From Candidatus Moranbacteria bacterium CG23_combo_of_CG06-09_8_20_14_all_35_22 (GTDB lineage: Bacteria > Patescibacteriota > Minisyncoccia > Moranbacterales > UBA2206), in NCBI GenBank assembly GCA_002772115.1, contig PCRW01000068.1, forward strand, positions 1 through 38,183: a DNA stretch of 38,183 bases, given 5' to 3'. Shown here piece by piece: positions 7,698 to 35,712 of the stretch; the first letter of the stretch is position 1; every line of letters begins with the position of its first letter. Made by a program: the position numbers and the translations under genes. The notes beneath the pieces are model-generated. The model made no database searches, was not told where the DNA came from, and saw nothing but the letters and a program-made list of their open reading frames with translations.

Positions 7698-7715
7698 TTA
7701 TTTTAGGATAAAAAT

Positions 7716-9248
7716 ATGCAAAATAAAAAAAATTTCTTAATTATGTTGATGCTAGTAGTTTTTCTTGGTGCGGGGCTGCGCATTTATAACTTAGGCAACA
7801 CTTCTTTTGATCGAGATGAATTCTTTGAGCTCAATTCTTCCTATGGTTATTTTAAAACAGGCACTTGGGTAGCCTGGGATTTTGGCAATGAGAAACCGTT
7901 TGAAGCGAGCTTGCAAGACAAAACTAGTACGGAGCGAGCGGAAATTTATCGCTGGCAATTGGCGCAGGTGTATAAATTTTTTGAACCGACAGAAATTTCA
8001 ACTCGCGCGATAAGTGTTTTTTGGGGAATTGTGAGTATTCTTGCCATATATTTTGTGACTCTTTCGTTTACGGGAAATTATTGGACAGCACTTTTGGCAG
8101 CTTTTTTGGTTGCAGTTGGTGAATCAGGCATAGTTTATAGTCGACGACTTCGTATGTACTCAATGCTTTTTCCTGTTTACTTAATTTTTTCTTGGTGTGT
8201 TTTCAAATTTTATGAAACGAAATATATCGGCAAGAATAAATTTTTTAAATTAGCTTCCGACAAACTAAATGTCAACTTGTTGTACATTTTGCCGGTAATA
8301 ATCACAGGGATTGTGAGCTACAATGTGCATATGCTTTCAGTGAGTATTGTGGTGGCAATTTTTTCTTTTTGTGTTTGCAGTTGGTTTTTATGGGAGAGAA
8401 AAAGTGGGAAAATAAATAAATATTCCATTACATTAGGAATGATTTTTATTGCCTATCTTATTGTGAGCTTGACTCCAAGTCTAGCTAAATTCTACAAATC
8501 ATTCAAAAAACAAGTCGAGCTTTTCAAATTTAATTATAATTATTTTACCGAATATTTTACGGATTTTATTTTTCCAATTGTCGGTTTAGTTTTGGCGCTT
8601 ATTGGAGTATGGTATTTATTTGAAAAAATGAAGAGAAAAAAAGAAGCAGTTTTTCTTTTTCTTTCGGCATTTGCCGTACTTGCTTTTGCTGTTTTCACTT
8701 GGGACAGAACTCCCTCTGGTCGTTACATCTATTTCATTCAATCTTTTGGCATAATTCTTGTGTCCGTTGGAATATACGCACTTTTCATCTATTTGACTGA
8801 TTATATTAAAAAACACAAGAAAATAGCGGGGATAATTCTGTTGATATTTTTTCTGGTGCTGATGGATTGGTCTTATTTCAAAAAAGAAAATAATATCTAT
8901 GCTCATACGAAAAATTCATATTATCCAGATTTTAAAAATATTTTTCCTTATATTTTAGAAAACAAAAAAGACGGAGATGTTTTTTTTACGCGATCATACC
9001 GTAGTTATTATTGGCAAGGAGAAAAAATAAAAGTAATTGATCTCCAGTCGCTTCCATTTGAGAAAAAAGATTGTTTGAAAAATGTCAGTGAAGTTATGGC
9101 GAAAAATCCAAAGGGCTGGTTTATTCTACCAAAAATAGATATGAATTTAATCTGCAAAGACGGGATAAAATATCTGGATGATAATTTTGAAAAAGTAAAA
9201 GATGAACATATTCCAACTTCTGTTTCAGTTTATCGTTGGGGTGGATAA
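7716..9248 (+). CDS. GT-C-fold membrane glycosyltransferase (ArnT/PMT-like), tandem paralogue B
   Basis: FDRDEFFELNSSYGYFKTGTWVAWDF. It shares long identical blocks with paralogue A (SVFWGIVSIL.IYFVTLSFTGNYW, RRLRMYSMLFP.YLIFSW, RYIYFIQSFGIILVS). Confidence 0.8.
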   Translation: MQNKKNFLIMLMLVVFLGAGLRIYNLGNTSFDRDEFFELNSSYGYFKTGTWVAWDFGNEKPFEASLQDKTSTERAEIYRWQLAQVYKFFEPTEISTRAISVFWGIVSILAIYFVTLSFTGNYWTALLAAFLVAVGESGIVYSRRLRMYSMLFPVYLIFSWCVFKFYETKYIGKNKFFKLASDKLNVNLLYILPVIITGIVSYNVHMLSVSIVVAIFSFCVCSWFLWERKSGKINKYSITLGMIFIAYLIVSLTPSLAKFYKSFKKQVELFKFNYNYFTEYFTDFIFPIVGLVLALIGVWYLFEKMKRKKEAVFLFLSAFAVLAFAVFTWDRTPSGRYIYFIQSFGIILVSVGIYALFIYLTDYIKKHKKIAGIILLIFFLVLMDWSYFKKENNIYAHTKNSYYPDFKNIFPYILENKKDGDVFFTRSYRSYYWQGEKIKVIDLQSLPFEKKDCLKNVSEVMAKNPKGWFILPKIDMNLICKDGIKYLDDNFEKVKDEHIPTSVSVYRWGG

Positions 9249-9286
9249 AAAGCAAAATTCTAAAAAATAAATTTTAAACTAAAACA

Positions 9287-10792
9287 ATGAAAAAAGAAAA
9301 AAATATTATTTTTGTTGCATTACTTTTTATACTAGTATTGGGATTTTTTTTGCGTTTTTATAAACTTGGGCAACAGCCATTTGTGACGGATGAGTTTTTG
9401 GATATTAACGCTACTTATGGATATTTTAAAACTGGGCAATGGTTGGCGTGGGATTTTAATCTAGATCAAGTGAGTGAAAATTTATATACTCAAAGAGAAG
9501 AACGCTCTTGGCTTTATCGCATTCAGGTGGCACAATTGTTTCATTTCTTTCCTTTGACAGAAGCAACGGCGAGGTCAGTGAGTGTCATTTGGGGAATAAT
9601 TAGTATTATTATTTTGTATTTTACAGCTACTTATTTTACTAAAAACAAAATCATTGGTCTTATCTCGGCTTTTCTTTTCGCAGTGAGTATCGCTGGAATA
9701 ACTTTTGATCGAATGCTTCGAATGTACGCCATGTTTTTTCCTGTTTTTCTCCTTTTTTCTTGGTTTCTCTTTCGATTTTTTGAGGAAGAATATGTGGGCA
9801 ATGTTGCAATTATGAAGCTCGTTTGGAATAAATTTGGAATAAATTTAGTCTGGTTTTTGCCAACAACATTTTTTGGATTATTGAGTTTTCATCTGCATCC
9901 GCTTACGCTTAATATTGGCGTGGTTTTTGGTGCTTATCTTGTCATCCAATCCTGCTTGGCTTTTTATCAAAAAAGAACCATATTAAATAAATATACAGTT
10001 ATTTTATTTTTAACATTGATTGGTTTGATTATAGTGTATATAAAAAATCCTCAAGTATATTCGTTTTATTCCAAAAAAGATCTGATTGCTTTTGATCATG
10101 CAAGATGGCGATATTTGCAAGCAATAGTTTCAGATTATATGAATATTATCTTGGCTTACGGATTGATTGTTTCCGGTTTTTATAATCTAAGAAAAAATAC
10201 TAAAATTAAAAAAGAATTAATTTGGCTGATTTGTTGTTTTTTTGCGATAGTTTTTTCGGCAGTTTTCTTGTGGAATGAAGTTTTTGGTTTGCGTTTTATT
10301 TTCTTTGCGATGTCTTTTGGGATAATCTTGCTTTCAAGCGGGATATATTTTTTTGCAGACAAAATTGGAAAATATTTTCTCGCGTATCAGAAAAAAGTTT
10401 TTATTGGTGTGCTAGCACTGGCACTTCTGATTGTTCCAAATTATGCTTATTTTTTTTCCAAAGAAAGTCCGTATCGAAAAGATGAAACTAAAACTGATTA
10501 TCGATCAGCTTTTCAATATTTTTTGGAGAATAAGAATGAAGGTGATGCTTTGCTTACGCGAAATTTTCGCAGTTTTTACTATAAAAACGCTAAAGCTAAA
10601 ATTATCAATAAGGAATGGAACAAAAAAATCAGTTTGGATGAATTGAATAAAATAATGATAGAAAATCCCAGTGGATGGATTGTGACAGGCGATCCAAAAG
10701 GGGACATGGAAAAAGACGCTTTGAAATATATAGAAGAAAATTCGTCAGATAAAAAAGAAATCAGTGGAGTTCAAATTTATCATTGGAATTAG
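9287..10792 (+). CDS. GT-C-fold membrane glycosyltransferase (ArnT/PMT-like), tandem paralogue C (most diverged)
   Basis: FVTDEFLDINATYGYFKTGQWLAWDF, with the same topology as A and B. Its C-terminal domain lacks the two Cys present in A and B. It overlaps the convergent gene by 4 nt. Confidence 0.8.
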   Translation: MKKEKNIIFVALLFILVLGFFLRFYKLGQQPFVTDEFLDINATYGYFKTGQWLAWDFNLDQVSENLYTQREERSWLYRIQVAQLFHFFPLTEATARSVSVIWGIISIIILYFTATYFTKNKIIGLISAFLFAVSIAGITFDRMLRMYAMFFPVFLLFSWFLFRFFEEEYVGNVAIMKLVWNKFGINLVWFLPTTFFGLLSFHLHPLTLNIGVVFGAYLVIQSCLAFYQKRTILNKYTVILFLTLIGLIIVYIKNPQVYSFYSKKDLIAFDHARWRYLQAIVSDYMNIILAYGLIVSGFYNLRKNTKIKKELIWLICCFFAIVFSAVFLWNEVFGLRFIFFAMSFGIILLSSGIYFFADKIGKYFLAYQKKVFIGVLALALLIVPNYAYFFSKESPYRKDETKTDYRSAFQYFLENKNEGDALLTRNFRSFYYKNAKAKIINKEWNKKISLDELNKIMIENPSGWIVTGDPKGDMEKDALKYIEENSSDKKEISGVQIYHWN

Positions 10793-16439: not shown

Positions 16440-16745
16440 TAACCCGAGTTCGAAAGGCGAAACACGCATCAATTGTGAGTGGCCGTGCCATTCATTTCAT
16501 TACTGCGGTTTTCGGCTTCAGGACTCAATTTCCCCGAGGGTTGCGTAACTATAACGCGATTTTGGATTAGGTTTCTGTGTTTATGGAAACCAAATGCAAT
16601 AGTTTTTCAATATTATTGCAATAAATATCCGCCCTCGGGCCCCAACATTTTGGCTAGGAGGCTGTTAAAAACGCCTCTGCCTCACTCCTCAGCAGGAGAC
16701 AGTGGTTTCCCTCCTGTTTCCACTTTTCCCTCCTGCTGAGTTTTT
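16440..16745 (-). ncRNA. Structured GC-rich ncRNA, class unconfirmed; best guess is a reduced RNase P RNA on the minus strand
   Basis: An island of about 300 nt, much more GC-rich than its flanks, lies between two CDSs. It has many nested helices: cccgaggg 16533-40 pairs with ccctcggg 16632-39; ggat pairs with atcc around the hairpins ggtttc/gaaacc and tgcaata/tattgca; gcgt pairs with acgc; gaggc pairs with gcctc. On the minus strand, AAUGAAUGG followed by a P2-like 3' strand, and then CGAACUCGGGUUA, resemble RNase P CR-IV and CR-V. A P2/P3/P4-like pseudoknot order is possible. The universal GGAAAGUCC and a P1 helix are not recognisable. The 86-aa ORF at 16479-16739 is judged spurious. Confidence 0.4.
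16688..16745. terminator. Long GC-rich hairpin: candidate intrinsic terminator, or the terminal helix of the ncRNA
   Basis: An 11-bp stem (ctcagcaggag ... ctcctgctgag) encloses an inner agtgg/ccact hairpin. It is followed on the + strand by tttttattttt. On the - strand it begins about 10 nt after the stop of 16750-17109 but has no U-tract. Confidence 0.35.
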
Positions 16746-19108: not shown

Positions 19109-20233
19109 TTACACTTTACTATTTACTGATTTTATAATTTCTTCTAAATATCTCTGCGAAATTTTTTCCCAAGTGAAATTTTCCTCAACATATTTTCCGG
19201 CCATTTTGCCAAAATTTTTGGCAAATTCTGGTCCGGCGGAAAAAATAGCCTGGATTTTCTTGACCCATTGTTCGGTGTTTTCGCTTTCAACCAGAAAACC
19301 ATTCTTGCCATCCTTAATTGCTTCCGCCAAACCTTGATAATTAGAAGCAACAACTATTCGCTCACATGCTCCCGCCTCAATAACATTAATTCCAAAACCT
19401 TCCACTGATTCAGGATAGGGAATATTTGGAGATACAACTAAATCAACAGTATTCAAAAGCACTTCCAAATCTTTTTGTGGTAGATTGGGCATTAACTTTA
19501 CTCTGTTTTCTAAACCATTTTCCTTGATGGCCTTTTCGCAATCGGAAAAATTATCCGGATCGCCAGCGGTGTTTTTGGCCACTCGATATCCAGTTGCAAT
19601 CATAAGTGTATCTTCGGAGAGTTTTGGCATAACATTTTTTATAAACCAAGCCGTGCCTTTATGCGGAACAAATCTGCCAAGACGCAAAATAATTTTTTTG
19701 TTAGTAATATCGGAACCCCACAACGCAGACAAATCTTGTCGAGAAAATTCCTTTTTTAAATTTTCGATAAAAACCCCATTAGGAATGAAAACGCAATTTT
19801 CTTTGGGAATTCCAATTTTAACTGCTTCTTCGATAGTAAAATTTCCAATCATAAAAAGTTTGTCAAGTTTTTTGAGAGAGGGAATGTTAATCGCTTTGTA
19901 AATTTTTGGTAAATTTCCCTTTTTATAAGCAAAGGTTATATCTAATCCATGCACAACAGAAAAAAACTTTTTCTTAGGATGAAAAATTTTCAAAGCAAAA
20001 GCAATTGGCGCCAAAACGCCATTACCCACAAGACAAGCGTCATAATTCATCATTAAAAAAAATGCCCGTAGGAAAGTTATGGGTATAAAAACAGGAAGCC
20101 ACCATTTGCCTCGGCCATTGGCGATAATTTTAACAGTAGCAATTTTTGAAAGCCCTTGAGCTAAATTGTAATTTTGACTTTCCACTCCACCAAGAATTGG
20201 AGGATAGGAATGGGAGATAAAAAGAATATTCAT
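19109..20233 (-). CDS. GT4-family glycosyltransferase
   Basis: N-terminus ILFISHSYPPILGGVE. EX7E region ESVEGFGINVIEAGACERIVVAS. Confidence 0.8.
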   Translation of the reverse strand: MNILFISHSYPPILGGVESQNYNLAQGLSKIATVKIIANGRGKWWLPVFIPITFLRAFFLMMNYDACLVGNGVLAPIAFALKIFHPKKKFFSVVHGLDITFAYKKGNLPKIYKAINIPSLKKLDKLFMIGNFTIEEAVKIGIPKENCVFIPNGVFIENLKKEFSRQDLSALWGSDITNKKIILRLGRFVPHKGTAWFIKNVMPKLSEDTLMIATGYRVAKNTAGDPDNFSDCEKAIKENGLENRVKLMPNLPQKDLEVLLNTVDLVVSPNIPYPESVEGFGINVIEAGACERIVVASNYQGLAEAIKDGKNGFLVESENTEQWVKKIQAIFSAGPEFAKNFGKMAGKYVEENFTWEKISQRYLEEIIKSVNSKV

Positions 20234-20237
20234 ATTT

Positions 20238-20346
20238 ATGATGCAAATACACGAATCTTATGCTAATCTACGAATATGCAAATAATAGCGATTCGCATAT
20301 TTGTGTATTTGCATGAAAGCAATTCGCGTCATTCGTATTATAGTTT
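20238..20346. repeat. 109-nt dispersed repeat, copy 1 (fills the spacer between GT2 and GT4)
   Basis: tgatgcaaatacacgaatcttatgctaatctacgaatatgcaaataatagcgattcgcatatttgtgtatttgcatgaaagcaattcgcgtcattcgtattatagttta. I counted 5 differences from copy 2. Confidence 0.85.
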
Positions 20347-21321
20347 ATTATATTTATCCTTCTTCCATTGATAGAAAAATTCTTCGGTGAGTTGGCGGGT
20401 GGATTTTATCATATCGGCGATGAGAGCAAAAATTATCAGTTGGATTCCAAGAAACATGGAGATTGAAGAAAAAACAATATAATTGAGATAGGGTCGAATT
20501 TTGAAATCTTGGAAATAGAAAAAAAGAAAAAATATAAAACCAATTAAACCTAAAATCATAAAAAATATTCCTGGCCAGCCGAAAAATTTTAGCGGTCGGA
20601 CATCGCGGACTGCTTTGAGAATAATTTTTGTAGAATTACTTACAAATTTGAAAATAGATTTGGTGATTTTGGCTTGGCGATTGTCAAAATAAGTGACTGT
20701 GATTGGTACCCATTTCAATTTCAAATTTTTTCCAATAGCGTCAATTATCGTATCTTGAGTATAAGTAAAATACAGATTAGTCAAATTTAGCCGAAGAAGT
20801 GCTTCTCGAGAGTGAGCACGAAAACCACAAGTTAGGTCATTAGTTTTGTAATTTAGGAAAAAACCAATTACAGAAGCGGCAAAACGATTGAAGAAACTTC
20901 GTACCCACGGAATGTTTTTCGCTTTTTGTTCTCCAAAACGATTAGCAATTACTATATCTGCTTCTCCTTTTAGCACTGGCAAGAGAAGTTTAGGAATATC
21001 ATTAGGATCAAATTGTCCATCCGCATCAATATTTACCATAAAATCAGCGCCATTTTTGAGTGAGCTTTCCACTGCTTGTTTGAAAGAATAAGCCAAACGG
21101 CGATTAGGTTTATAAGAAACGACAATATCAGCGCCATTTTCTTTGGCAACTCGGGCAGTGCCATCAGTTGAGCCGTCGTTTACTACTTGAATTAATTTTT
21201 CATCTATCACGGTGCCTTCATTAGAATAAAAATTATGGGCAAAACTTTTTTTGATATTTTGAATTGTTTTTCCCAAATCCTTTTCTTCATTATAAGCGGG
21301 AATGTTAATGATTAGTTTCAT
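20338..21321 (-). CDS. GT2 polyprenyl-phosphate sugar synthase-like glycosyltransferase (Dpm1/GtrB/ArnC type)
   Basis: INIPAYNEEKDLGKTI, VNDGSTDGT and the DxD motif NIDADGQ are present, plus two C-terminal TM helices. This is the usual donor-making partner of GT-C enzymes. Confidence 0.8.
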   Translation of the reverse strand: MKLIINIPAYNEEKDLGKTIQNIKKSFAHNFYSNEGTVIDEKLIQVVNDGSTDGTARVAKENGADIVVSYKPNRRLAYSFKQAVESSLKNGADFMVNIDADGQFDPNDIPKLLLPVLKGEADIVIANRFGEQKAKNIPWVRSFFNRFAASVIGFFLNYKTNDLTCGFRAHSREALLRLNLTNLYFTYTQDTIIDAIGKNLKLKWVPITVTYFDNRQAKITKSIFKFVSNSTKIILKAVRDVRPLKFFGWPGIFFMILGLIGFIFFLFFYFQDFKIRPYLNYIVFSSISMFLGIQLIIFALIADMIKSTRQLTEEFFYQWKKDKYNKL

Positions 21322-21329
21322 AATAATTG

Positions 21330-21438
21330 TGATGCAAATCCACGAATCTTATGCTAATCCACGAATATGCAAATAAGAGTGATTCGCATATTTGTATATT
21401 TGCATGAAAGCAATTCGCGTCATTCGTATTATAGTTTA
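21330..21438. repeat. 109-nt dispersed repeat, copy 2 (fills the spacer between the small ORF and GT2)
   Basis: It has the same sequence and orientation as copy 1. Together the two copies directly bracket the GT2 gene at 20338-21321. Confidence 0.85.
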
Positions 21439-21785: not shown

Positions 21786-23003
21786 ATGAATAAAATAAAA
21801 ATAGGAATCAATGCCAGTTATCTTAGAAAGCCGAACACTGGTATCGGACAAGTGACAGCCAACTTTTTGAAAATGTTGGCAAGAGACAAAAATAATAACT
21901 TTGAATTTATTTTGTATTTAGAGGAAGAAATTCCAAAGGATTTCAAGCTTCCTAAAAATTTTACTAAAAAAATATTTTTGCCAATTTATAAGCGCGATGA
22001 TTTGATTCGAAAAATTTGGTGGGAAAAATTTCTTTTGCCGAGACAAGTCAAAAAAGACGGGTGTGATGTTTTTGTCAGTATGTACCAATGTCCCACTGTT
22101 TTCACAACGCTTAAGACGCCAAGCGTCTTGAATTCTGGACGCTTGGCGTCTTTGCGTCATATAATGCTAGTGCATGATATAATTCCAAAATTATTTCCCA
22201 AGTATTTGGATAATTTCAGAAAAAAAGTATATTGGAAATTGACGGAATATGGGATAAAAAAGGCGCACAAGATTATCGCTGTTTCCAAAAGAACGGAAAA
22301 AGATTTGATTGAACACTTGAATATCGGCGCAGACAGAATTACTACCAATTATATAGATGTCGATGAATGTTATAAGGTAGAGACGCAAAATTTTGCGTCT
22401 CTACGAGAGCGAAATATTTTAAAGAAATACAAATTAAATTCAGGATATATCTTAGCTGGTGGGGGATATGAGGTGCGAAAAAATGTCGAGGGTGTGGTGC
22501 GAGCCTATAAATTACTGTTAGAAAAAAACAAAAAAGAAAATTTTTTGCCAAATTTTCCGAAGTTAGCGATATACGGAAAGGTTTTGTCGGAAAGTTTGAG
22601 TCTGGCAACGCCGATAGAAAAAATATTGAGAGAATTAAATTTGACGAAAGATGTGATTCTTTTGGGTGAAGTCCCACAAAAAGACTTGCCGGCGCTGTTT
22701 AGTCATGCTATTGTGTTTGCTTACCCTTCGTTTTATGAGGGTTTTGGCATGCAAATTTTGGAAGCCATGAATGTGGGTACGCCTGCCATCACTTCCAAAG
22801 TTTCTTCACTGCCAGAAGTAGGCGGAGACAGTGTGTTATATTGTAATCCTGATGAAATTTCTGACATCGCAATGGTTTTGAAAAATATTTTAACGAATTA
22901 TGATTTACGAGAACAACTGAAAACTCGTGGCCAAGAACGCGCCAAACAATTTTCCTGGGAAAAATTTAGCGAGAAGATTTTAAATATAATTGAAGAAATG
23001 TAA
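21786..23003 (+). CDS. GT4-family glycosyltransferase carrying two palindromic in-frame inserts
   Basis: The motif YPSFYEGFGMQILEAMNVGTPAITS matches the paralogue at 24765-25925 (FPSFYEGFGMPIIEAMSLGVPTIVSD). Confidence 0.85.
   Translation: MNKIKIGINASYLRKPNTGIGQVTANFLKMLARDKNNNFEFILYLEEEIPKDFKLPKNFTKKIFLPIYKRDDLIRKIWWEKFLLPRQVKKDGCDVFVSMYQCPTVFTTLKTPSVLNSGRLASLRHIMLVHDIIPKLFPKYLDNFRKKVYWKLTEYGIKKAHKIIAVSKRTEKDLIEHLNIGADRITTNYIDVDECYKVETQNFASLRERNILKKYKLNSGYILAGGGYEVRKNVEGVVRAYKLLLEKNKKENFLPNFPKLAIYGKVLSESLSLATPIEKILRELNLTKDVILLGEVPQKDLPALFSHAIVFAYPSFYEGFGMQILEAMNVGTPAITSKVSSLPEVGGDSVLYCNPDEISDIAMVLKNILTNYDLREQLKTRGQERAKQFSWEKFSEKILNIIEEM
22113..22152. repeat. Near-perfect nested palindrome (double hairpin around a GAATTC centre), in-frame in a GT4 CDS
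   Basis: aagacgccaagcgtctt-gaattc-tggacgcttggcgtctt. It encodes ...LKTPSVLNSGRLASLRH..., which has no counterpart in the paralogue at 24765-25925. Confidence 0.85.
22377..22404. repeat. 28-nt perfect palindrome, copy 1, in-frame in a GT4 CDS
   Basis: gtagagacgcaaaattttgcgtctctac. It encodes VETQNFASLR. Confidence 0.9.
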
Positions 23004-24698
23004 ATGAATTTATTTTTTGAAAAAATAATTAATAACTTCAACAAGCCAAAAAATTGGCTTCTTTTGGCGAATGTGGTTTTGGTTTTTGTTTTGATAGTTT
23101 GCAATAATTTGGGAATTATTCCTTTGCGAATGGGGGATTTTGTTTTTTTTGCGATTTTAGTTTTGGGCTTGGCGCTGTATCGTCCTGGGTGGGCCTTTTT
23201 ATTTTTTGTTGGCACGATTGCATTGGAAAACATCAATTTGGCACCGGCCGAACTTGGAATTGCCATTCGACCCTATCAATTTATCGGCACGCTCACGATC
23301 ACGGCAATTATAACTCGATTACTTTCTGGAAAATTAAATTTCAAATTGGCAAAATTAAATTTTGTAGATTATCTAATTCTAATTATTACAGCGTCTAGTT
23401 TTGTAAGTGCGTTTATTTCTGCGGTAAAGATGCAAAATTTTGCGTCTCTACGGTTGGCGATAATTCTGGCGATATTTTCCGCGCTATATTTTTTAGTGCG
23501 AAATTATGTTCAAAATTTAGAAGATCTCAAAAAAATTATTCCTTTTTTTCTAAGTTCGGCGGTTGTCGTCGTGCTTTATGGCATTTGGCAAAATATTTGG
23601 TTTTTGAAAGGATTAAAAAGTTTTGAAACAATGTTGGGACGATCAAACGCAACTTTTTTCGAAGCGGATTGGCTGGGAATGTACTTAGTGTTGATAATAT
23701 CGATTTTAATAATTCTTTTTTCTGCCCTCTCCTCAACTCCCGCCTACCGGCGAGGCAGGCTCTCCCGATTACGGGCGAGGGGGTCATTGAAATTTCCTTC
23801 TCTCCCTTTGGGAGAGATATCCCGATGTAATCATCGGGACAGAGAGGGAAAGGGCGTATTAATAAAAATATTCTTATTTATATTTTTAACCTTATCTTTT
23901 ATTTTATTAATTCTTACTGTTTCACGCAGTGCTTGGCTCGGGGCATTTGCAATGACATTTATTTTTCTTTTCGCTATTCTAACAAATTTAAAATTTTATC
24001 TAAAACATTGGCAATGGAAAAAAACTATTCAAATGAAATTAATTATATTTCCGGCACTGTTAGTTGCAATTGGTGCAATTTATATTTTCCATCTGACTAA
24101 TTTCCAATTATTTAATCGAGTGCAATCAACTGGATCAGGAATGCAAAAAATTACCATTTCTTGTGATGCAAGGAACGCAAATTTGCATTCCCTACCGAAA
24201 GAAATTGAAAATATTTCTGAATTAGAAAAATATAATTGCCGGCATATAAATTTAGAAGAAATAGATTTTGAAAAAGCTAAAGGGAAATATGTTAGTGAAA
24301 TTTATCGTAAAGATCCAAATGTAAACATAAGAAAAGAAATTTATCAGAAATCTTGGCAAGAAATTAGAAATCATTGGATATTGGGAATTGGTTGGGGAAA
24401 TATTTCCAAAATATTAGGCAATGACGAAAAGGGGACGCCCTTGAATTCTTCCAATATATTTTTGGAAGTTTGGCTGGGCACTGGAATTTTAGGTTTTGCG
24501 TCTTTCGTTATTATGCTATCGTATATATTAGTAAGGGCAGTGAGAGATTATTATTTATCAAAAGATGATTTGCAAAAAATCGTCAGTTTATTTTTAATTA
24601 TTTCCTGGTTTGCAATTATTATCCCCAATCTTTTCAATGCCGGAATATTTTTAGGATTTTTGTGGGTTTGGCTGGGCATAGTACATATAAAAAAATAG
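23004..24698 (+). CDS. O-antigen ligase/polymerase-family (Wzy_C) membrane protein carrying three repeat-derived inserts
   Basis: Multi-TM protein with LTVSRSAWLGAF and a large outer loop followed by GIGWGN. Its ATG abuts the stop of the upstream GT4 gene. Confidence 0.7.
   Translation: MNLFFEKIINNFNKPKNWLLLANVVLVFVLIVCNNLGIIPLRMGDFVFFAILVLGLALYRPGWAFLFFVGTIALENINLAPAELGIAIRPYQFIGTLTITAIITRLLSGKLNFKLAKLNFVDYLILIITASSFVSAFISAVKMQNFASLRLAIILAIFSALYFLVRNYVQNLEDLKKIIPFFLSSAVVVVLYGIWQNIWFLKGLKSFETMLGRSNATFFEADWLGMYLVLIISILIILFSALSSTPAYRRGRLSRLRARGSLKFPSLPLGEISRCNHRDREGKGVLIKIFLFIFLTLSFILLILTVSRSAWLGAFAMTFIFLFAILTNLKFYLKHWQWKKTIQMKLIIFPALLVAIGAIYIFHLTNFQLFNRVQSTGSGMQKITISCDARNANLHSLPKEIENISELEKYNCRHINLEEIDFEKAKGKYVSEIYRKDPNVNIRKEIYQKSWQEIRNHWILGIGWGNISKILGNDEKGTPLNSSNIFLEVWLGTGILGFASFVIMLSYILVRAVRDYYLSKDDLQKIVSLFLIISWFAIIIPNLFNAGIFLGFLWVWLGIVHIKK
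23424..23451. repeat. 28-nt palindrome, copy 2 (2 mismatches), in-frame in the O-antigen-ligase-like CDS
   Basis: gtaaagatgcaaaattttgcgtctctac. It encodes VKMQNFASLR. Confidence 0.9.
23722..23856. repeat. GC-rich multi-hairpin block of about 135 nt, in-frame in the O-antigen-ligase-like CDS
   Basis: It contains cccgcctaccggcgaggcagg (23739-59), and the hairpins cccg-atta-cggg (23764-75), tctctccc-ttt-gggagaga (23799-817) and cccgatg-taat-catcggg (23821-38). It encodes STPAYRRGRLSRLRARGSLKFPSLPLGEISRCNHRDREGKG. Confidence 0.85.
24171..24192. repeat. Imperfect 22-nt palindrome in-frame in the O-antigen-ligase-like CDS
   Basis: aggaacgcaaa|tttgcattccc (9 of 11 arm positions pair). Its gcaaa-tttgc core is related to the 28-nt palindrome. 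It encodes ARNANLHSL. Confidence 0.6.
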
Positions 24699-24705
24699 GA
24701 AGGTT

Positions 24706-24752
24706 AAATTCGAGGTTTCACCTCGAGTAACTCGAGGTGAAACCTCGAATTT
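24706..24752. repeat. 47-nt perfect nested palindrome (double hairpin), intergenic
   Basis: aaattcgaggtttcacctcgagt-a-actcgaggtgaaacctcgaattt. Each arm contains the hairpin cgaggt-nnn-acctcg. It lies between the ligase-like stop (24698) and the GT4 start (24765). Confidence 0.9.
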
Positions 24753-28031: not shown

Positions 28032-29366
28032 ATGAATCAAGAAAATTTTAAAGAAAAAATAAATCAAGAAATAATCGGAGAGAAAGAGAAAAGAGAAAAA
28101 GAAAATCTGGAGAAAAATCTCCGGCTTTTTAAAAAATATGTATTTTTTTCAGTGGTTGTAATTTTTTTGATCATCAGTTTTTTCCTTGGTTATAAAAAGG
28201 GGCAAGACGAAACGCATTCAAAAAACAGAGAAGTTTTGTTGGAAAAAGCAATTATTGAAAATAAAGCCCTTCCACAAGGGGAAAAAGTTGATTTTGCCAT
28301 TTTTTGGAAAGTTTGGGAGTTGGTCAAAGAAAAGCATGTGGAAAAAAATAATTTAGATGCGCAAAAAATGGTTTATGGAGCGATTAATGGAATGCTTAGC
28401 GCTACAGGAGATCCTTACTCGAGTTTTTTTAATCCCGAGGAAAGTAGAATGTTTTCGCAGGATATTGCCGGATCATTTGATGGTATTGGAGCAGAACTGG
28501 GAATAAAAGATGAAATTTTGACTATTATTGCTCCACTGGACGGTTCTCCAGCGCAAAAATCCGGACTTCGCAGCGGGGATAAAATTTTGAAAATTGATGG
28601 CAAGTCATCGTTGGATCTGACAATTGATCAAGCAGTGAATCTTATCAGGGGGAAAAAGGGCACTTCTGTTGAATTGACAATTTTTCATGAAAATGATCAA
28701 GAGACCGTGGAAGTGACTGTAATTAGAGATACGATAAAATTAGATAGCGCCAAGGTAGAATTTAAGGATGATGGCATCGCGTATCTAAAAATAATCAAAT
28801 TTTCTGATGATGTGGATGATCAATTTAATTTGGCAATGAATAAGATTATTACTAATAAAAGCAAAGGTATAATTTTAGATCTTCGCGATAATCCCGGTGG
28901 TCTTTTGGATAAATCAATTTCTATTGCCAGTCGGATGATGCCGAAAGGTAAAATAGTTGTTTTGGAAGAAGATAGTAGCGGCAAGAAAGAAAATATTTAT
29001 ACTTTTGGCGGAGATAAATTGAGTTCGATTCCTATGGTGGCGCTTATCAATGAAGGCAGTGCTAGCGCTTCGGAAATTTTAGCCGGAGCTTTGCGGGATA
29101 ATCAGGAAATAGTTTTAATTGGTGAAAAAACATTTGGCAAGGGAAGTGTTCAAGAACTAGTTGATCTGCCAGATGGATCAAGCGTCAAAATTACTGTGGC
29201 CAAATGGCTCACGCCCAAAGGAGAGTATATTATGGACAAAGGAATTTCTCCTGATATTGAAATCAAAATGACACCGGAAGATTATGAAAATAAACGCGAC
29301 CCGCAATTGGAAAAAGCGCTGGAAGAAATAAAGAAAATCAGAACCACTGACCTGCCTCGCCGGTAG
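28032..29366 (+). CDS. ctpA: Carboxy-terminal processing protease (peptidase S41) with a PDZ domain
   Basis: PDZ domain (GLRSGDKILKIDG). S41 core NPGG, GSASASEILAG and TFGKGSVQ. The last five codons and the stop lie inside a dispersed 21-nt repeat. Confidence 0.85.
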   Translation: MNQENFKEKINQEIIGEKEKREKENLEKNLRLFKKYVFFSVVVIFLIISFFLGYKKGQDETHSKNREVLLEKAIIENKALPQGEKVDFAIFWKVWELVKEKHVEKNNLDAQKMVYGAINGMLSATGDPYSSFFNPEESRMFSQDIAGSFDGIGAELGIKDEILTIIAPLDGSPAQKSGLRSGDKILKIDGKSSLDLTIDQAVNLIRGKKGTSVELTIFHENDQETVEVTVIRDTIKLDSAKVEFKDDGIAYLKIIKFSDDVDDQFNLAMNKIITNKSKGIILDLRDNPGGLLDKSISIASRMMPKGKIVVLEEDSSGKKENIYTFGGDKLSSIPMVALINEGSASASEILAGALRDNQEIVLIGEKTFGKGSVQELVDLPDGSSVKITVAKWLTPKGEYIMDKGISPDIEIKMTPEDYENKRDPQLEKALEEIKKIRTTDLPRR

Positions 29367-29371
29367 GCGGG
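29351..29371. repeat. 21-nt repeat, the exact reverse complement of 23739-23759, spanning the ctpA stop codon
   Basis: cctgcctcgccggtaggcggg. It encodes LPRR plus the TAG stop of ctpA. Confidence 0.9.
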
Positions 29372-32559: not shown

Positions 32560-32567
32560 TTAACCGA

Positions 32568-32601
32568 TGCGAAACTACGAATCGTATGCGAATCTACGAA
32601 C
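32568..32601. repeat. T(A/G)CGAA(N) heptamer array upstream of pyrH
   Basis: tgcgaaa at 32568, tacgaat at 32576, tgcgaat at 32587 and tacgaac at 32595. Confidence 0.75.
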
Positions 32602-34412: not shown

Positions 34413-34426
34413 ATAAATTGCTATAG

Positions 34427-34451
34427 GGATCCTGAAATAAATTCAGGATGA
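34427..34451. repeat. 25-bp inverted-repeat arm (left) flanking the nuclease gene; itself a hairpin or operator-like palindrome
   Basis: gatcctgaaataaattcaggatgac is the exact reverse complement of 35656-35680. Confidence 0.85.
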
Positions 34452-34488
34452 CAAAAACACAAGTTCAGGATGATTCCACTAAGCGGAA

Positions 34489-35643
34489 TCATTTTTTCTT
34501 CACGCTTAAACTTTTGGTTTCTTTGTTGAGAACTTTGGCTTTTTCAATTTCCTTTTTGGCATCAAATGGTAAGACACCCAGAATATTTCGCAGTGCAATG
34601 CCATCTACTTTCAACACATCTTCCCAATGATCAAGTGGTTCCAAAACTTCACGGAGTTTTTTCTCGTCATATTTATAAGTTTTGCGAAGTGACCTCGCAA
34701 TGACGCCTTGTGGCCCAAAAACTCGCTCCACGCCTTCTTGATCCATATAACTCAAGATATCCTCTTGCAGTTTTGCTAAACGATCTTTGGTAATATTTAT
34801 CGCTGATTTCAAATCTATGTATTCTTCGATAGATTTGTTAATTTCTTCTGTGTCGATGTGACGCAGTTCTTTGAATTTATGTTTCCACATTGGGCAAAGA
34901 TTTTGGTATCCGCACCAATCGCAAAGAGGGGACATAGTCGGCTCAAAATTACCAGCCTCAATGACTTTTATAGTGTCTAAAAAGAGTTGTTCACTTTTTT
35001 TCAATTGTTCTAAGGTTCTTGTGGCGGATAATTTCATGCCATGTTTCAAATAATATAAGCTAACTTTTATTTTATCTAAATTTTGAATTTCTTTGGGATA
35101 ATTAGAAAGAAATGCTTGCAGATAAACAGAGAGTTGAATGTCGTTGTCAACTTTTTCTTGATTAGGCATTTTCTTGGTAGTTTTATAATCAATAATTTCA
35201 AAACCATCGTCAGTTTTGTCTATGCGGTCGATGATGCCAGAGATGATATGTCTTTCTTGGGCTTGCCCCGCGGTCGCCGTAGGTGACTTTGCGGGGCCTA
35301 TTTCAATTTGAAAACGGGATTCCAAATTGATAATATTAAAATCAGCCGGATTATTTTTTTGATAATAATCTTGAATAATTTTGACGCCTTGGGAAAAGGC
35401 GGCACGCTCCTCAGTTTCTCCGTCGAAAACTGCTGGGTTCCAGGAATTTCCAAAATGTTCCATAGCTTGATCCAAAGTAGGGGAGAGAATTCCCGGTGTA
35501 TGGATAAATTTCATTGTTTCATGAATTGTCGAGCCAAAAACCGCCTCCTTGGATTTAGGAACTTTAATTCGATCAATATTTTGAAATTTATATTTCAGCG
35601 GGCAATTCTGATAGGCATCAAAAGCACTGTAGGATATACGCAT
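34489..35643 (-). CDS. PD-(D/E)XK nuclease, Cas4/AddB-like with a 4-Cys cluster
   Basis: N-terminal SAFDAYQNCPLKYKF. Nuclease core GIIDRID ... EIIDYKT. CDWCGYQNLCP, together with the N-terminal Cys, fits an Fe-S staple. A C-terminal extension of about 130 aa follows. Confidence 0.75.
   Translation of the reverse strand: MRISYSAFDAYQNCPLKYKFQNIDRIKVPKSKEAVFGSTIHETMKFIHTPGILSPTLDQAMEHFGNSWNPAVFDGETEERAAFSQGVKIIQDYYQKNNPADFNIINLESRFQIEIGPAKSPTATAGQAQERHIISGIIDRIDKTDDGFEIIDYKTTKKMPNQEKVDNDIQLSVYLQAFLSNYPKEIQNLDKIKVSLYYLKHGMKLSATRTLEQLKKSEQLFLDTIKVIEAGNFEPTMSPLCDWCGYQNLCPMWKHKFKELRHIDTEEINKSIEEYIDLKSAINITKDRLAKLQEDILSYMDQEGVERVFGPQGVIARSLRKTYKYDEKKLREVLEPLDHWEDVLKVDGIALRNILGVLPFDAKKEIEKAKVLNKETKSLSVKKK
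35266..35296. repeat. GC-rich hairpin in-frame in the nuclease CDS
   Basis: ccccgc-ggtcgccgtaggtgacttt-gcgggg. It encodes ...AKSPTATAGQAQ... in an otherwise AT-rich gene. Confidence 0.7.
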
Positions 35644-35653
35644 AAGAAATAAA

Positions 35654-35712
35654 TTGTCATCCTGAATTTATTTCAGGATCTCAAGAGATGCTGAAACAAG
35701 TTCAGCATGACA
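35654..35712. repeat. Right inverted-repeat arm plus a second related palindrome, enclosed by a 7-bp outer stem (double-hairpin module)
   Basis: ttgtcat-cctgaatttatttcagg-atctcaagag-atgctgaaacaagttcagcat-gacaa. Both inner palindromes share CTGAA-N5-TTCAG. Confidence 0.8.

What the first reader, a model, noticed from the sequence alone, without database searches (positions are those of the whole stretch)
23722..23856. GC-rich multi-hairpin block of about 135 nt translated inside an O-antigen-ligase-like membrane protein
A sharply GC-rich segment interrupts an AT-rich gene between two TM regions. It contains at least four hairpins, including tctctccc-ttt-gggagaga and cccgatg-taat-catcggg. It is translated into an Arg-rich peptide (PAYRRGRLSRLRARGSLKFPSLPLGEISRCNHRDREGKG).

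Its first 21 nt recur as an exact reverse complement 5.6 kb away at the ctpA stop. This shows that at least part of the block is a dispersed repeat. It could be a composite of several small elements nested into one another.
Basis: seen in the sequence. Interest (0 to 1): 0.65.

Follow-up and report, generated by a model that had tools for sequence, protein, structure and literature searches.

The report
Nested mini-repeats translated inside a membrane-protein gene
The GC-rich block is not native gene sequence but a stack of small, widely dispersed hairpin and triple-helix-type DNA repeats that landed in a tolerant cytoplasmic loop of an O-antigen-ligase-like gene and are read through in frame; this is a candidate-phylum bacterium's version of the 'selfish DNA inside genes' known from Rickettsia.

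Summary
The block is real: 135 nt at 58.5% GC in a 31.5% GC Wzy_C/O-antigen-ligase-family gene of a Moranbacteria-like (CPR) bacterium. It is in frame and contains four hairpins. One detail is wrong: the 21-nt repeat is 23739-23759, not the first 21 nt.

The block has two parts.
- **Two inverted modules.** Each is a pyrimidine/purine hairpin plus a tract that mirrors one hairpin arm. This is the signature of the known bacterial intrastrand-triplex repeats (BoxC/PIT/TMECO).
- **A nested 21-nt hairpin.** It sits in the second loop of the left module and is absent from the only orthologue that shares the block.

The right module's 20-nt core occurs exactly in more than 120 stretches of genomes from many phyla. 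Its second hairpin co-varies, and its tail tracks the hairpin arm as a mirror image. The 21-mer occurs exactly in more than 120 metagenome contigs with unrelated flanks and no target duplication. Copies of both elements inside genes strongly favour frames that give Pro/Gly/Ser-rich peptides.

The host loop is hypervariable in about 100 orthologues and holds at least five repeat families. It is inferred to be cytoplasmic and is modelled at low confidence.

Verdict: selfish, structure-defined DNA repeats tolerated in frame, a new variant of known kinds. How they move is unknown.

The parts
23004..24698 (+). Host gene: a 564-aa Wzy_C / O-antigen-ligase-family membrane protein. The ORF is intact across the insert.
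   Evidence: ORF listing. Pfam Wzy_C 6.9e-17. 737 homologues, mostly Moranbacteria/Parcubacteria. Best PDB fold match is WaaL 7TPG.
23724..23731 (+). Left module, pyrimidine 'third-strand' tract GCCCTCTC. It is the exact mirror image of the left hairpin's 5' arm CTCTCCCG. Its GCCC also pairs with GGGC at 23852-23855, closing the whole block.
   Evidence: Coordinates. The outer stem appears in the fold. The same tract is present in L001.
23732..23738 (+). Left module, native second-loop linker CTCAACT (CCCAACC in L001).
   Evidence: Alignment of window and L001.
23739..23759 (+). Nested 21-nt hairpin element CCCGCCTACCGGCGAGGCAGG, read here as PAYRRGR. It sits in the second loop of the left module and is absent from L001.
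   Evidence: A 21-nt indel against L001. Exact reverse-complement copy at 29351-29371. More than 120 exact copies in metagenome contigs with unrelated flanks, no target-site duplication and sharp ends.
23760..23779 (+). Left module hairpin CTCTCCCG-ATTA-CGGGCGAG, with one internal mismatch (a degenerate copy).
   Evidence: The L001 version has a second mismatch.
23780..23798 (+). Spacer between the two inverted modules (GGGGTCATTGAAATTTCCT).
   Evidence: Comparable 25-30-nt spacers separate inverted module pairs in Pedobacter and Gracilibacteria loci.
23799..23817 (+). Right module hairpin A: TCTCTCCC-TTT-GGGAGAGA, an 8-bp pyrimidine/purine stem.
   Evidence: The core 20-mer TTCTCTCCCTTTGGGAGAGA is exact in more than 120 genome stretches. 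Covariance-model hit 23795-23850 at 55.3 bits.
23818..23840 (+). Right module hairpin B (TATCCCGATG-TAAT-CATCGGGAC), occupying the second loop. L001 has a different 17-nt hairpin here (TGTCGCG-TACT-CGCGAC).
   Evidence: Pairing co-varies across 33 copies: pair 26-48 is UA 18 / CG 10 / GC 5, and the covariation score is 0.159 against 0.042 for shuffles (0 of 500 as high). A near-identical hairpin B occurs in Moranbacteria locus L042. L001's hairpin B is identical to the one in L122.
23841..23848 (+). Right module purine tail AGAGAGGG, the exact mirror of the hairpin A 3' arm GGGAGAGA. Geometry is that of a class II, purine-motif intrastrand triplex.
   Evidence: About nine in ten of the 130 copies of the core 20-mer have a recognisable purine tail within a short distance. 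The tail co-varies with the arm in diverged copies.
23849..23856 (+). Right end AAAGGGCG. Its GGGC pairs with GCCC at the left end.
   Evidence: Fold; coordinates.
29351..29371 (-). Second copy of the 21-nt hairpin element, in reverse orientation. It forms the last four codons (LPRR) and the TAG stop of the S41/CtpA-like gene 28032..29366.
   Evidence: The close relative L003 ends differently (...KEKIHPVK*) and has no 21-mer here.

Best explanation
**What it is.** The block is non-native, selfish repeat DNA that inserted into a permissive loop of a Wzy_C-family gene. It survives because it is in frame, stop-free and tolerated by the protein.

**Layers.**
1. *Two inverted modules of one family.* Each module is a pyrimidine/purine hairpin (hairpin A), a second loop, and a tract that is the mirror image of one hairpin arm. 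This three-tract layout defines the intrastrand-triplex repeats described as BoxC, PIT or TMECO. In single-stranded DNA the + strand of the right module could form G*G-C and A*A-T triples. The left module could form the pyrimidine-type equivalent.
2. *Loop occupants.* The second loops are occupied by small hairpins. The right one holds hairpin B, an exchangeable cassette that differs between the two lineages carrying the block. The left one holds a discrete 21-nt hairpin element that inserted later and has a second copy at the ctpA stop.

**How it works.**
- Shown:
  - Both element types are dispersed with exact sequence across unrelated loci.
  - The 21-mer has sharp ends and no target duplication.
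  - Intergenic copies of the module show no strand bias and avoid divergent promoter regions.
  - Copies inside genes are filtered to frames that encode flexible Pro/Gly/Ser/Ala-rich peptides.
- Inferred:
  - The elements act at the DNA level, not as RNA genes.
  - They are copied in through a structure-dependent, single-strand-DNA route or by gene conversion between copies. This would explain why the block's nucleotides are more conserved than synonymous sites.
  - Their only consequences for the host are a disordered cytoplasmic loop extension and local hypervariability.
- Unknown: the mobilising enzyme. None is encoded in the window.

**Confidence.** The figure of 0.7 applies to the identity of the block (a nested composite of dispersed repeats, tolerated in frame). 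The copying route on its own I would put at about 0.35.
For: **Insert, not native sequence**
- The loop segment is 41-45 aa in the shortest orthologues, 64 aa at the median and up to 102 aa. It carries at least five different repeat-derived peptide families.
- The closest relative by flanking DNA (L003, 87-91% nt identity) has an unrelated GTCATTCTGAGCG...CACTCAGGATGAC palindrome at the same site.
- Residues 245-280 are modelled at pLDDT below 50, between confident helices.

**Nesting**
- L001 has the same block minus exactly 21 nt, and with a different hairpin B.

**Dispersal**
- The 20-mer core is exact in more than 120 genome stretches across Bacteroidota, Patescibacteria, Planctomycetota, Binataceae, Chlamydiia, Acinetobacter and Kuenenia. 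My own estimate of the chance expectation is about 1.
- The 21-mer is exact in more than 120 metagenome contigs.

**Module structure**
- About nine in ten of 130 core copies have a recognisable purine tail within a short distance.
- Hairpin B co-varies.
- The tail mirrors the arm when the arm changes. Examples: GGGAGAGG to GGAGAGGG, TAAAGGAAAGA to AGATAGGAAT, GGGAAAGA to AGAAAGGG, GGGAGGGA to AGGGAGGG.
- Among non-seed arms, 53 of 146 have their own mirror tail, against a mean of 19 (maximum 29) when arms are permuted.
- Most tail variants are A to T at A positions. T*A-T triples are allowed in the antiparallel motif (established knowledge).

**Known class**
- Holder et al. 2015 (PMC4666352) describe intrastrand triplex repeats and the TMECO pattern, and show triplex formation in vitro.
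- Gracilibacteria copies (L089, L040) fit the TMECO pattern exactly.

**DNA-level behaviour**
- Between tandem genes, 15 module copies lie in the gene's orientation and 12 opposite. 12 lie between convergent genes and 1 between divergent genes.

**Filtering by translation**
- Module: 19 of 32 copies inside ORFs are in the single frame SLPLGEM....
- 21-mer: 48 of 59 are in the frames PPTGEAG or PASPVGG.

**Nucleotide constraint**
- Block identity to L001 is 0.89/0.97/0.83 by codon position. The rest of the gene is 0.81/0.92/0.70.

**Not an assembly artefact**
- P0001 is seen on 9 contigs, and P0002 in two samples.
Against: - Only one strong module copy and two 21-mer copies lie in the 38-kb window. 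Dispersal within this particular genome is therefore not demonstrated.
- No transposase, RAYT or other mobilising gene is in the window. Holder et al. also found none for TMECO.
- Triplex formation was not and cannot be tested here. The 23-nt second loop is far longer than the loops for which triplexes were demonstrated.
- The left module is degenerate, with a mismatch in its stem.
- The elevated nucleotide conservation of the block rests on 36 codons. It could also reflect a recent recombination tract rather than constraint.
- The frame counts include some orthologous copies and some doubtful ORFs in GC-rich genomes. About 10 independent events are in the favoured frame.
- Translation of the insert is inferred from ORF continuity only.
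- The 21-mer shows no general preference for structured flanks, so nesting here may be incidental.
Confidence: 0.7

Rival explanations
1. The module is a functional structured RNA. It could be a small non-coding RNA related to Rfam whalefall-1, or a cis-acting mRNA element that pauses translation or stabilises the message, and it merely overlaps the coding sequence.
For: - The fold is very stable (z = -4.2).
- Hairpin B shows compensatory changes.
- Whalefall-1 has the same order of parts: a UCUCUCC/GGAGAGA hairpin, an inserted stretch, then a purine tail. Its discoverers rated it a likely RNA (PMC2864571).
- Copies inside ORFs are mostly co-oriented with the gene (26 of 32, a stricter ORF definition: 21 same, 9 opposite).
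Against: - Whalefall-1 scores only 12.9-20.3 bits against a gathering score of 37.
- No Rfam family reaches its threshold in the window.
- Intergenic copies show no strand preference: 15 same against 12 opposite.
- The conserved mirror tail has no Watson-Crick partner in solo copies. According to the literature cited in PMC4666352, the purine-type triplex does not form in RNA.
- The element is absent from most orthologues of this gene.
- The strong reading-frame bias points to selection on the peptide, not the RNA.
Confidence: 0.1
2. The insert is an adaptive part of the protein. An Arg-rich cytoplasmic loop would have been recruited and kept by selection, for example to fix topology (positive-inside rule) or to bind a partner.
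For: - The insert has 11 R+K in 45 residues, in a loop inferred to be cytoplasmic.
- The block has been kept in frame in two lineages that differ by about 22% in DNA.
- Both indels between them are multiples of three, 21 nt and 6 nt.
Against: - Other orthologues have unrelated inserts or only an 8-aa loop at this site.
- The insert is modelled as disordered, with pLDDT about 40.
- Conservation is not codon-like: position 1 is about as conserved as position 3.
- The PAYRRGR frame of the 21-mer is the rare one, 3 of 59 copies inside ORFs. This looks like chance survival rather than design.
Confidence: 0.08
3. The palindromes arose locally. Template switching or hairpin-primed repair at this unstable site would have produced them, and similar sequences elsewhere would be convergent products of the same mutational process.
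For: - The site is hypervariable.
- Triplex and hairpin sequences are linked to genomic instability (PMC4666352).
- No transposase is at hand.
- The 21-mer leaves no target-site duplication.
Against: - Exact 20- and 21-nt identity across more than 120 unrelated loci each, in many phyla, cannot be convergent.
- The 21-mer is an imperfect palindrome, yet both window copies are identical at 21 of 21 positions.
- The boundaries are sharp.
Confidence: 0.05
4. The block is removed before or during translation, as a mini-intron or a ribosomal bypass ('hop') element like the GC-rich byp elements of yeast mitochondria. It would then not be part of the protein.
For: - It is a GC-rich structured insert in an AT-rich gene, superficially like mitochondrial GC clusters and byps (my own knowledge, not tested).
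Against: - All length variants keep the frame: 135 nt, 108 nt, and indels of 21 and 6 nt.
- There is no stop codon in frame.
- The strong frame bias of intragenic copies of both elements is expected only if they are translated.
Confidence: 0.03

Closest known systems
Intrastrand triplex repeats of bacteria (BoxC / PIT elements / TMECO; Hoyne and Maher 2000; Holder et al. 2015, PMC4666352)
   Same: - Three consecutive tracts: a pyrimidine arm, a purine arm, then a second purine tract that mirrors the first.
- GC-rich, highly conserved and dispersed.
- Often in palindromic pairs.
- No strand bias and no associated transposase.
- Linked to locally variable DNA.
- Gracilibacteria relatives of the window's module fit the TMECO pattern exactly.
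   Different: - Arms are 8 nt (TCTCTCCC/GGGAGAGA) rather than CCCTCNCCC.
- The second loop is a 10-26-nt co-varying hairpin instead of 3 nt, so published searches with loops of 1-6 nt would miss it.
- Distribution is mainly Bacteroidota and CPR rather than Proteobacteria and Cyanobacteria.
- This copy is inside a gene and read in frame, whereas E. coli TMECO is reported as always intergenic.
Rickettsia palindromic elements (RPE; Ogata et al. 2000, 2002) and other in-frame MITEs such as Coxiella QMITE (reviewed in PMC10969869)
   Same: - Palindromic non-autonomous repeats of about 100-150 bp.
- Inserted in frame into unrelated genes of a small-genome bacterium.
- Translated as extra surface or loop segments compatible with the fold.
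   Different: - No sequence relation was tested or is expected.
- The element here is modular and nested (8-nt tracts, 17-23-nt hairpins, a 21-nt unit).
- Its modules cross phylum boundaries.
- It carries mirror-repeat (triplex) symmetry, which RPEs are not known for.
REP elements, including intragenic REPs (Di Nocera et al. 2013, PMC3733652)
   Same: - The 21-mer is a 20-40-nt imperfect GC-rich palindrome.
- It is highly dispersed, without target duplication, and sometimes lies inside genes.
- The module is enriched between convergent genes, as REPs are.
   Different: - There is no terminal GTAG or CGTC tag. The flank profile shows only 'not T' at -1 and C at +1.
- No RAYT gene was seen.
- Copy number per genome is unknown.
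Rfam whalefall-1 RNA motif (RF01762; Weinberg et al. 2010, PMC2864571)
   Same: - Same order of parts: UCUCUCC/GGAGAGA hairpin, an inserted stretch of about 22 nt, then a purine-rich tail.
   Different: - It scores 12.9-20.3 bits against a gathering score of 37.
- Whalefall-1 was interpreted as a non-coding RNA. The data here (no intergenic strand bias, mirror tail) fit a DNA element better.

Membership tests
Intrastrand triplex motif (ITxF class II; BoxC/PIT/TMECO) | Three consecutive tracts on one strand: a pyrimidine arm, a complementary purine arm, and a second purine tract that is the mirror image of the first. | tested here: met
   Right module: TCTCTCCC / GGGAGAGA / AGAGAGGG, 8 of 8 mirrored. 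Left module, inverted: GCCCTCTC / CTCTCCCG / CGGGCGAG. The mirror relation co-varies in relatives.
Intrastrand triplex motif (ITxF class II; BoxC/PIT/TMECO) | TMECO consensus 5'-CCCTCNCCC N3-6 GGGNGAGGG N3 GGGNGAGGG. | tested here: not met
   The window arms are TCTCTCCC/GGGAGAGA and the second loop is 23 nt. Relatives L089 and L040 do fit: CCCTCTCCC TTT GGGAGAGGG CTA GGGTGAGGG. Pattern taken from PMC4666352.
Intrastrand triplex motif (ITxF class II; BoxC/PIT/TMECO) | Both loops are short (1-6 nt in the ITxF search definition). | tested here: not met
   Loop 1 is 3 nt. Loop 2 is 23 nt on the right (a hairpin) and 28 nt on the left (7-nt linker plus the 21-mer).
Intrastrand triplex motif (ITxF class II; BoxC/PIT/TMECO) | Forms a triple helix as single-stranded DNA (CD, NMR, footprinting). 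| not testable with these tools
   The folding tools model Watson-Crick pairs only.
Intrastrand triplex motif (ITxF class II; BoxC/PIT/TMECO) | Intergenic location with no strand bias (as reported for E. coli). | tested here: not met
   The window copy is inside an ORF. Intergenic relatives do show no strand bias, 15 same against 12 opposite.
REP (repetitive extragenic palindrome, RAYT-associated) | A 20-40-nt imperfect palindrome present in many dispersed copies. | tested here: met
   The 21-mer folds as a 7-bp stem with one mismatch. It has more than 120 exact copies with unrelated flanks. Copies per genome are not known.
REP (repetitive extragenic palindrome, RAYT-associated) | A conserved unpaired GTAG or CGTC tag at one end. 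| tested here: not met
   The flank profile of 106 unique copies shows only depletion of T at -1 and enrichment of C at +1.
REP (repetitive extragenic palindrome, RAYT-associated) | A RAYT (Y1 transposase) gene in the same genome. | tested here: inconclusive
   None among the window's ORFs scanned with Pfam. The rest of the genome is not available.
Rickettsia palindromic elements / in-frame MITEs | A palindromic repeat of about 100-150 bp inserted in frame into otherwise conserved genes and absent from orthologues. | tested here: met
   135 nt, in frame, absent from all but one of about 100 orthologues.
Rickettsia palindromic elements / in-frame MITEs | Sequence homology to an RPE family. | not tested
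   No RPE library is on hand. The relation claimed is 'works like', not membership.
MITE (classical, DDE-transposase derived) | Terminal inverted repeats plus a target-site duplication. | tested here: inconclusive
   The ends are complementary: GCCCTCTC... against ...GAGAGGG..GGGC. No flanking duplication abuts the ends; TTAATAA occurs on both sides but 11 nt from the left end. The 21-mer has no TSD in 106 copies.
Rfam whalefall-1 (RF01762) | Covariance-model score at or above the gathering score of 37 bits. | tested here: not met
   15.6 bits in the window, 20.3 bits in L014 and 12.9 bits in L019.

The most novel reading that the evidence does not exclude
The hairpin-hairpin-mirror-tail module could be a previously unrecognised, cross-phylum family of structure-defined mobile DNA. 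In this reading its triplex-capable fold in single-stranded DNA is what gets recognised and copied. Its second loop serves as a landing pad or exchange site for independent mini-hairpins such as the 21-mer. Copies inside genes are actively homogenised at the nucleotide level. In CPR bacteria, this process would continuously remodel permissive cytoplasmic loops of cell-envelope enzymes into translated, hypervariable segments. It would also imply that Rfam's whalefall-1 'RNA' is really a DNA repeat of this kind.
Probability: 0.25. Interest if true: 0.75.

Novelty: new variant of a known kind. Interest (0 to 1): 0.55.

Why it matters
**Annotation.** These inserts inflate and diversify predicted proteins in CPR and Bacteroidota metagenomes. 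Arg- or Pro/Gly-rich 'loops' such as PAYRRGR, PPTGEAG and SLPLGEMS..QRG are repeat DNA, not protein motifs, and should be masked in family building and structure prediction.

**Repeat biology.** The finding ties together three literatures that have been kept apart: triplex-type BoxC/TMECO repeats, REP-like mini-hairpins, and in-frame 'selfish DNA in genes' of the Rickettsia type.
- It shows a triplex-type module with a structured second loop that earlier loop-limited searches could not find.
- That module is spread with exact sequence over very distant phyla.
- It gives a clean natural example of nesting, through a 21-nt presence/absence difference between orthologues.
- It shows selection filtering insertions by reading frame.

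**Mechanism.** If the structure-dependent copying idea holds, these would be among the smallest mobile units known. They would give an experimentally tractable handle on how intrastrand triplex repeats spread, which has been open since 2000.

Tried and rejected
The first 21 nt (23722-23742) have no second copy. The k-mer scan relocated the repeat to 23739-23759.
- **tRNA, tmRNA or known RNA family.** ARAGORN found none. Rfam at gathering scores found none in the window. Permissive scans gave only sub-threshold hits, the only meaningful one being whalefall-1. The Flavo-1 hit in L102 lies beside a module, not on it.
- **Six-frame peptide census.** A protein search with the six translations joined by X runs returned nothing, not even the window's own protein, so it was uninformative.
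- **Viral origin.** The 21-mer has no match in IMG/VR contigs.
- **Further module copies in this genome piece.** The covariance model found only the one copy in the window, plus a weak inverted half on the minus strand, 13.6 bits, E = 0.15.
- **Abundance of triplex modules in CPR contigs.** The contigs fetched through the 21-mer hold only 16 perfect 8-bp pyrimidine/purine hairpins, few of them with mirror tails. The module is not common there.
- **Preference of the 21-mer for structured targets.** Flank folding energy and GC do not differ from control positions 400 nt away (median -5.65 against -5.35 kcal/mol, p = 0.28). Rejected as a general rule.
- **Transposase in the window.** None was found. 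The only nuclease-like gene is a PD-(D/E)XK protein flanked by a different palindrome.
- **Crude hydropathy segmentation for topology.** The output was too noisy to use. Topology was instead inferred from the model's helices, the invariant cysteines of the large loop and the Lys-rich short loops.
- **Reading the left hairpin as a shortened copy of hairpin B.** Considered, but the exact 8 of 8 mirror match of GCCCTCTC to CTCTCCCG favours the 'second, inverted module' reading.
Full report
**1. Setting**

The window is AT-rich (33.5% GC) and encodes a cell-envelope glycan locus: GT4 and GT2 glycosyltransferases, a Wzx/MurJ-like flippase, LytR-CpsA-Psr, a PMT-like protein, an S41/CtpA-like protease, ribosomal protein L9 and CTP synthase. 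The gene holding the finding, 23004..24698(+), is an intact 564-aa ORF. It hits Pfam Wzy_C at 6.9e-17. Its homologues are named Moranbacteria or Parcubacteria group by their sources. Syntenic contigs L003/L004 are 87-91% identical in DNA, and L001 is about 77% identical. The organism is therefore a Moranbacteria-like member of the Candidate Phyla Radiation.

**2. Checking the observation**

- Positions 23722-23856 are 58.5% GC, against 31.5% for the rest of the gene.
- The stretch folds much better than shuffles, as RNA (z = -4.2) or as DNA (z = -3.5).
- It is open in the gene's frame and reads ...SALSSTPAYRRGRLSRLRARGSLKFPSLPLGEISRCNHRDREGKG....
- The statement that the first 21 nt recur is not literally true. 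23722-23742 is unique in the window.
- The unit that recurs is 23739-23759, CCCGCCTACCGGCGAGGCAGG. Its exact reverse complement lies at 29351-29371.
- There it provides the codons LPRR and the TAG stop of the CtpA-like gene. The close relative L003 ends that gene differently and has no such unit.

**3. The loop is a dumping ground**

An alignment of 27 orthologues, and a regex survey that located the loop in 101 of the 120 retrieved homologues, show where the variation sits. The segment between the conserved EADWLG and TVSRSAW motifs is 41-45 aa at its shortest, leaving a loop of about 8 residues that is typically Lys-rich. It is 64 aa at the median and up to 102 aa.

The extra residues are recognisable translations of several unrelated repeat families:
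- NFQFSIFNQFS...
- CHSERSEAESKNL...SLRMTG
- VIARE...ARNDI
- SPQPPLPSGEGE...
- PAYR(Q/T)(A/G)G...

Only P0002 (loci L001 and L002, two samples) shares the window's block. L003, although closer in flanking DNA, has a GTCATTCTGAGCG...CACTCAGGATGAC palindrome at the same place. A comparison of the window with L003 over about 20 kb finds many further small, often GC-rich and hairpin-like indels. Those that fall inside genes (21, 24 and 78 nt) are multiples of three.

An AlphaFold2 model (mean pLDDT 69.5) gives confident helices on either side (221-243 and 277-305) and pLDDT below 50 for residues 245-280. Its best PDB match is the O-antigen ligase WaaL, 7TPG.

I infer that the insert loop is cytoplasmic, as follows. 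The large loop 364-484 carries invariant cysteines and is taken to be extracytoplasmic. Counting three helices back from it puts the insert loop on the cytoplasmic side. The Lys-rich native loops and the K-rich loop at 328-337 agree with this. This is inference, not a topology prediction. My crude hydropathy segmentation was too noisy to use.

**4. Nesting shown directly**

In the DNA alignment of the window with L001, the block is colinear except for two differences.
- The window has exactly 21 extra nucleotides, and these are the 21-mer.
- The hairpin next to the right end is TATCCCGATG-TAAT-CATCGGGAC in the window and TGTCGCG-TACT-CGCGAC in L001. Both arms differ and the length differs by 6 nt.

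Both differences keep the reading frame. L001's version of that hairpin is identical to the one in an unrelated locus, L122, where it sits inside a miaA-like ORF. The window's version is nearly identical to the one in Moranbacteria locus L042. These hairpins therefore behave as exchangeable cassettes rather than as a slowly drifting sequence.

**5. The right half belongs to a widespread module**

By my estimate about one match is expected by chance.
- Hosts include Flavobacteriaceae, Pedobacter, Gracilibacteria, Moranbacteria, Stieleria and other Planctomycetota, Binataceae, Chlamydiia, Acinetobacter and Kuenenia.
- In about nine in ten of 130 copies the hairpin is followed, after 1-30 nt, by a purine tail, most often AGAG[A/T]GGG or AGTGAGGG. 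When the gap is longer than a few bases it is itself a hairpin closed by G-C.
- On an alignment of 33 distinct copies, that second hairpin shows compensatory change. Pair 26-48 is UA 18, CG 10, GC 5. The covariation score is 0.159 against 0.042 for shuffles, with 0 of 500 shuffles as high, and it collapses when partners are slid.
- A covariance model built from this alignment finds 164 copies in 766 kb of the fetched loci, often as inverted pairs or alternating arrays. It finds one strong copy in the window, 23795-23850 at 55 bits.

**6. Mirror symmetry**

The tail AGAGAGGG is the mirror image of the hairpin's 3' arm GGGAGAGA, not its complement. In diverged copies the two change together:

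| 3' arm of hairpin A | Tail |
|---|---|
| GGGAGAGG | GGAGAGGG (three copies in L062) |
| TAAAGGAAAGA | AGATAGGAAT |
| GGGGGAGG | GGAGGGG |
| GGGAGAGGG | GGGTGAGGG |
| GGGAAAGA | AGAAAGGG |
| GGGAGGGA | AGGGAGGG |

Among pyrimidine/purine hairpins with arms other than the seed, 53 of 146 have their own mirror tail within 45 nt. Permuting the arms gives a mean of 19 and a maximum of 29 in 200 permutations. Most tail variants replace A by T at A positions.

A hairpin plus a mirror-image third tract is exactly what an intrastrand triple helix needs: G*G-C, A*A-T and T*A-T triples in the antiparallel purine motif, or the pyrimidine motif on the other strand.

This class is already in the literature. 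BoxC, also called PIT elements, were re-described as TMECO with the pattern CCCTCNCCC N3-6 GGGNGAGGG N3 GGGNGAGGG. They were shown to form triplexes in vitro. They are always intergenic in E. coli, show no strand bias, have no transposase nearby, and are associated with locally variable DNA (Holder et al. 2015, PMC4666352). The Gracilibacteria copies fit that pattern exactly. The window's module is a variant, with 8-nt arms and a structured second loop well beyond the 1-6 nt allowed in the published search.

**7. Re-reading the left half**

GCCCTCTC (23724-23731) is the exact mirror of CTCTCCCG (23760-23767). CTCTCCCG is the 5' arm of the hairpin CTCTCCCG-ATTA-CGGGCGAG. The left half is therefore a second module in inverted orientation, somewhat decayed, with one stem mismatch here and two in L001. 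The 21-mer occupies its second loop, the position equivalent to hairpin B on the right.

The full layout is: tail' - linker - [21-mer] - hairpin A' - 19-nt spacer - hairpin A - hairpin B - tail. The outer ends are complementary, which explains the closing stem in the fold. Inverted module pairs with 25-30-nt spacers are the common arrangement in Pedobacter and Gracilibacteria.

**8. The 21-mer is a discrete, dispersed unit**

- It has no match in viral contigs.
- Flanks are unrelated right up to the ends. T is avoided at -1 and C is favoured at +1. There is no target-site duplication and no extension of the stem.
- Flanks are no more structured or GC-rich than control positions, so a general preference for landing in hairpins is not supported.

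**9. Selection by reading frame**

- Of 110 unique 21-mer contexts, 59 lie in long ORFs. Of these, 27 read PPTGEAG, 21 read PASPVGG, and only 3 read PAYRRGR as in the window.
- Of 32 module copies in long ORFs, 19 are co-oriented and in the one frame reading SLPLGEM...(Q/D)R(G/E)G, although all six frames are open.
- After collapsing orthologous copies, I count about ten independent events in that frame.
- This is what is expected if the inserts are translated and only flexible, hydrophilic peptides survive. The same argument was made for Rickettsia palindromic elements (reviewed in PMC10969869).

**10. DNA-level behaviour**

- Between tandem genes the module lies 15 times in the gene's orientation and 12 times opposite. 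It is common between convergent genes (12) and nearly absent between divergent genes (1). This pattern is REP-like and argues against a strand-specific RNA function.
- Between the window and L001 the block is 0.89/0.97/0.83 identical at codon positions 1/2/3. The rest of the gene is 0.81/0.92/0.70.
- The insert thus changes more slowly than synonymous sites and without a codon pattern. This suggests constraint on the nucleotide structure, homogenisation by other copies, or a recent recombination tract. With only 36 codons I cannot separate these.

**11. Mechanism: what is shown and what is inferred**

Shown:
- Non-native origin.
- Nesting.
- Dispersal with exact sequence.
- Hairpin and mirror covariation.
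- Absence of a target duplication for the 21-mer.
- Frame filtering.
- Lack of intergenic strand bias.

Inferred:
- The elements are copied at the DNA level through a route that recognises folded single strands, as for REP/RAYT or IS200/IS605-type systems, or by gene conversion.
- The host consequence is a disordered cytoplasmic loop plus local instability.

Unknown: the enzyme. No transposase is encoded in the window.

**12. Novelty and score**

Each ingredient has a precedent: triplex-type repeats, REP-like hairpins inside genes, and in-frame palindromic elements. What I did not find described in the searched literature:
- the structured-loop variant of the triplex module and its exact conservation across distant phyla;
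- its frame-biased occurrence inside genes;
- a clean case of one mini-element nested in another's loop;
- a CPR membrane-protein loop that has collected at least five repeat families.

I rate it a new variant of known kinds, with interest 0.55.

Noticed in passing
window 22377-22404 and 23424-23451: A 28-nt perfect palindrome, GTAGAGACGCAAAATTTTGCGTCTCTAC, lies in frame inside the GT4 gene 21786..23003, where it reads VETQNFASL. A copy with 2 mismatches lies in frame inside the ligase gene, where it reads VKMQNFASL. The same peptide is present in some orthologues (P0002, P0003, P0013; variants in P0007 and P0026) and absent from others. This is a second in-frame palindromic repeat family in the same gene.
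   Followed up: partly
window 20232-20347, 21323-21438 and 32566-32600: A 116-nt direct repeat (94% identical) flanks the GT2 gene 20338..21321(-) on both sides. A partial third copy lies 11 kb away. The unit contains ACGAATCTTATGCTAATCTACGAA-type sub-repeats.
   Followed up: no
window 34421-35687: A 384-aa PD-(D/E)XK / Cas4-like nuclease ORF, 34489..35643(-), is bracketed by inverted copies of a self-palindromic element, GGATCCTGAAATAAATTCAGGATGAC (34-nt arms, 91% complementary). A related copy occurs in L003 at an unrelated position. This may be a mobile or homing-type cassette.
   Followed up: partly
L003 10961-10981, 11673-11750 and 19318-19437; window 24700-24742: The window and its 90%-identical relative differ by many small hairpin-like indels.
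- A 21-nt TTGTCCGCCGATGAGGCGGGG in L003's ligase gene, giving NLSADEAG.
- A 78-nt GC-rich C-terminal extension of L003's ligase.
- A 120-nt GTCATTCCCGCG...CGGGAATGAC element in L003.
- A 43-nt hairpin downstream of the window's ligase gene.
   Followed up: partly
window 16625-16716: A 92-nt intergenic stretch at 57% GC lies between the GT4 gene (ends 16393) and a 119-aa ORF. It is unrelated to the block and unexplained.
   Followed up: no
window 6144-10792: Three tandem paralogous ORFs of 501-517 aa, 70-80% identical in patches, have no Pfam match.
   Followed up: no
L001 9466-10000 and L003 9497-10000, against window 23003/23004: In both relatives about 500 nt, with a small minus-strand ORF, separate the GT4 gene from the ligase gene. 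In the window the GT4 stop codon abuts the ligase ATG.
   Followed up: no
L072 6245-7253, L087 4874-5517, L096 3975-4257, L102 6263-6941: In Pedobacter, Nubsella and Acinetobacter the module forms alternating-orientation or tandem arrays, with a period of about 42 nt in L096. In L102 three modules sit in about 230-nt tandem units next to a bona fide Flavo-1 RNA hit at 49.9 bits.
   Followed up: partly
L218 and L222 (metagenome contigs): Two otherwise colinear contigs both carry the 21-mer. They differ by a further 30-nt hairpin, CGGGCCTCTTCGGCCCGCCGAAGAGGCGAG, directly after it. This is another presence/absence case of a mini-hairpin beside the 21-mer.
   Followed up: no
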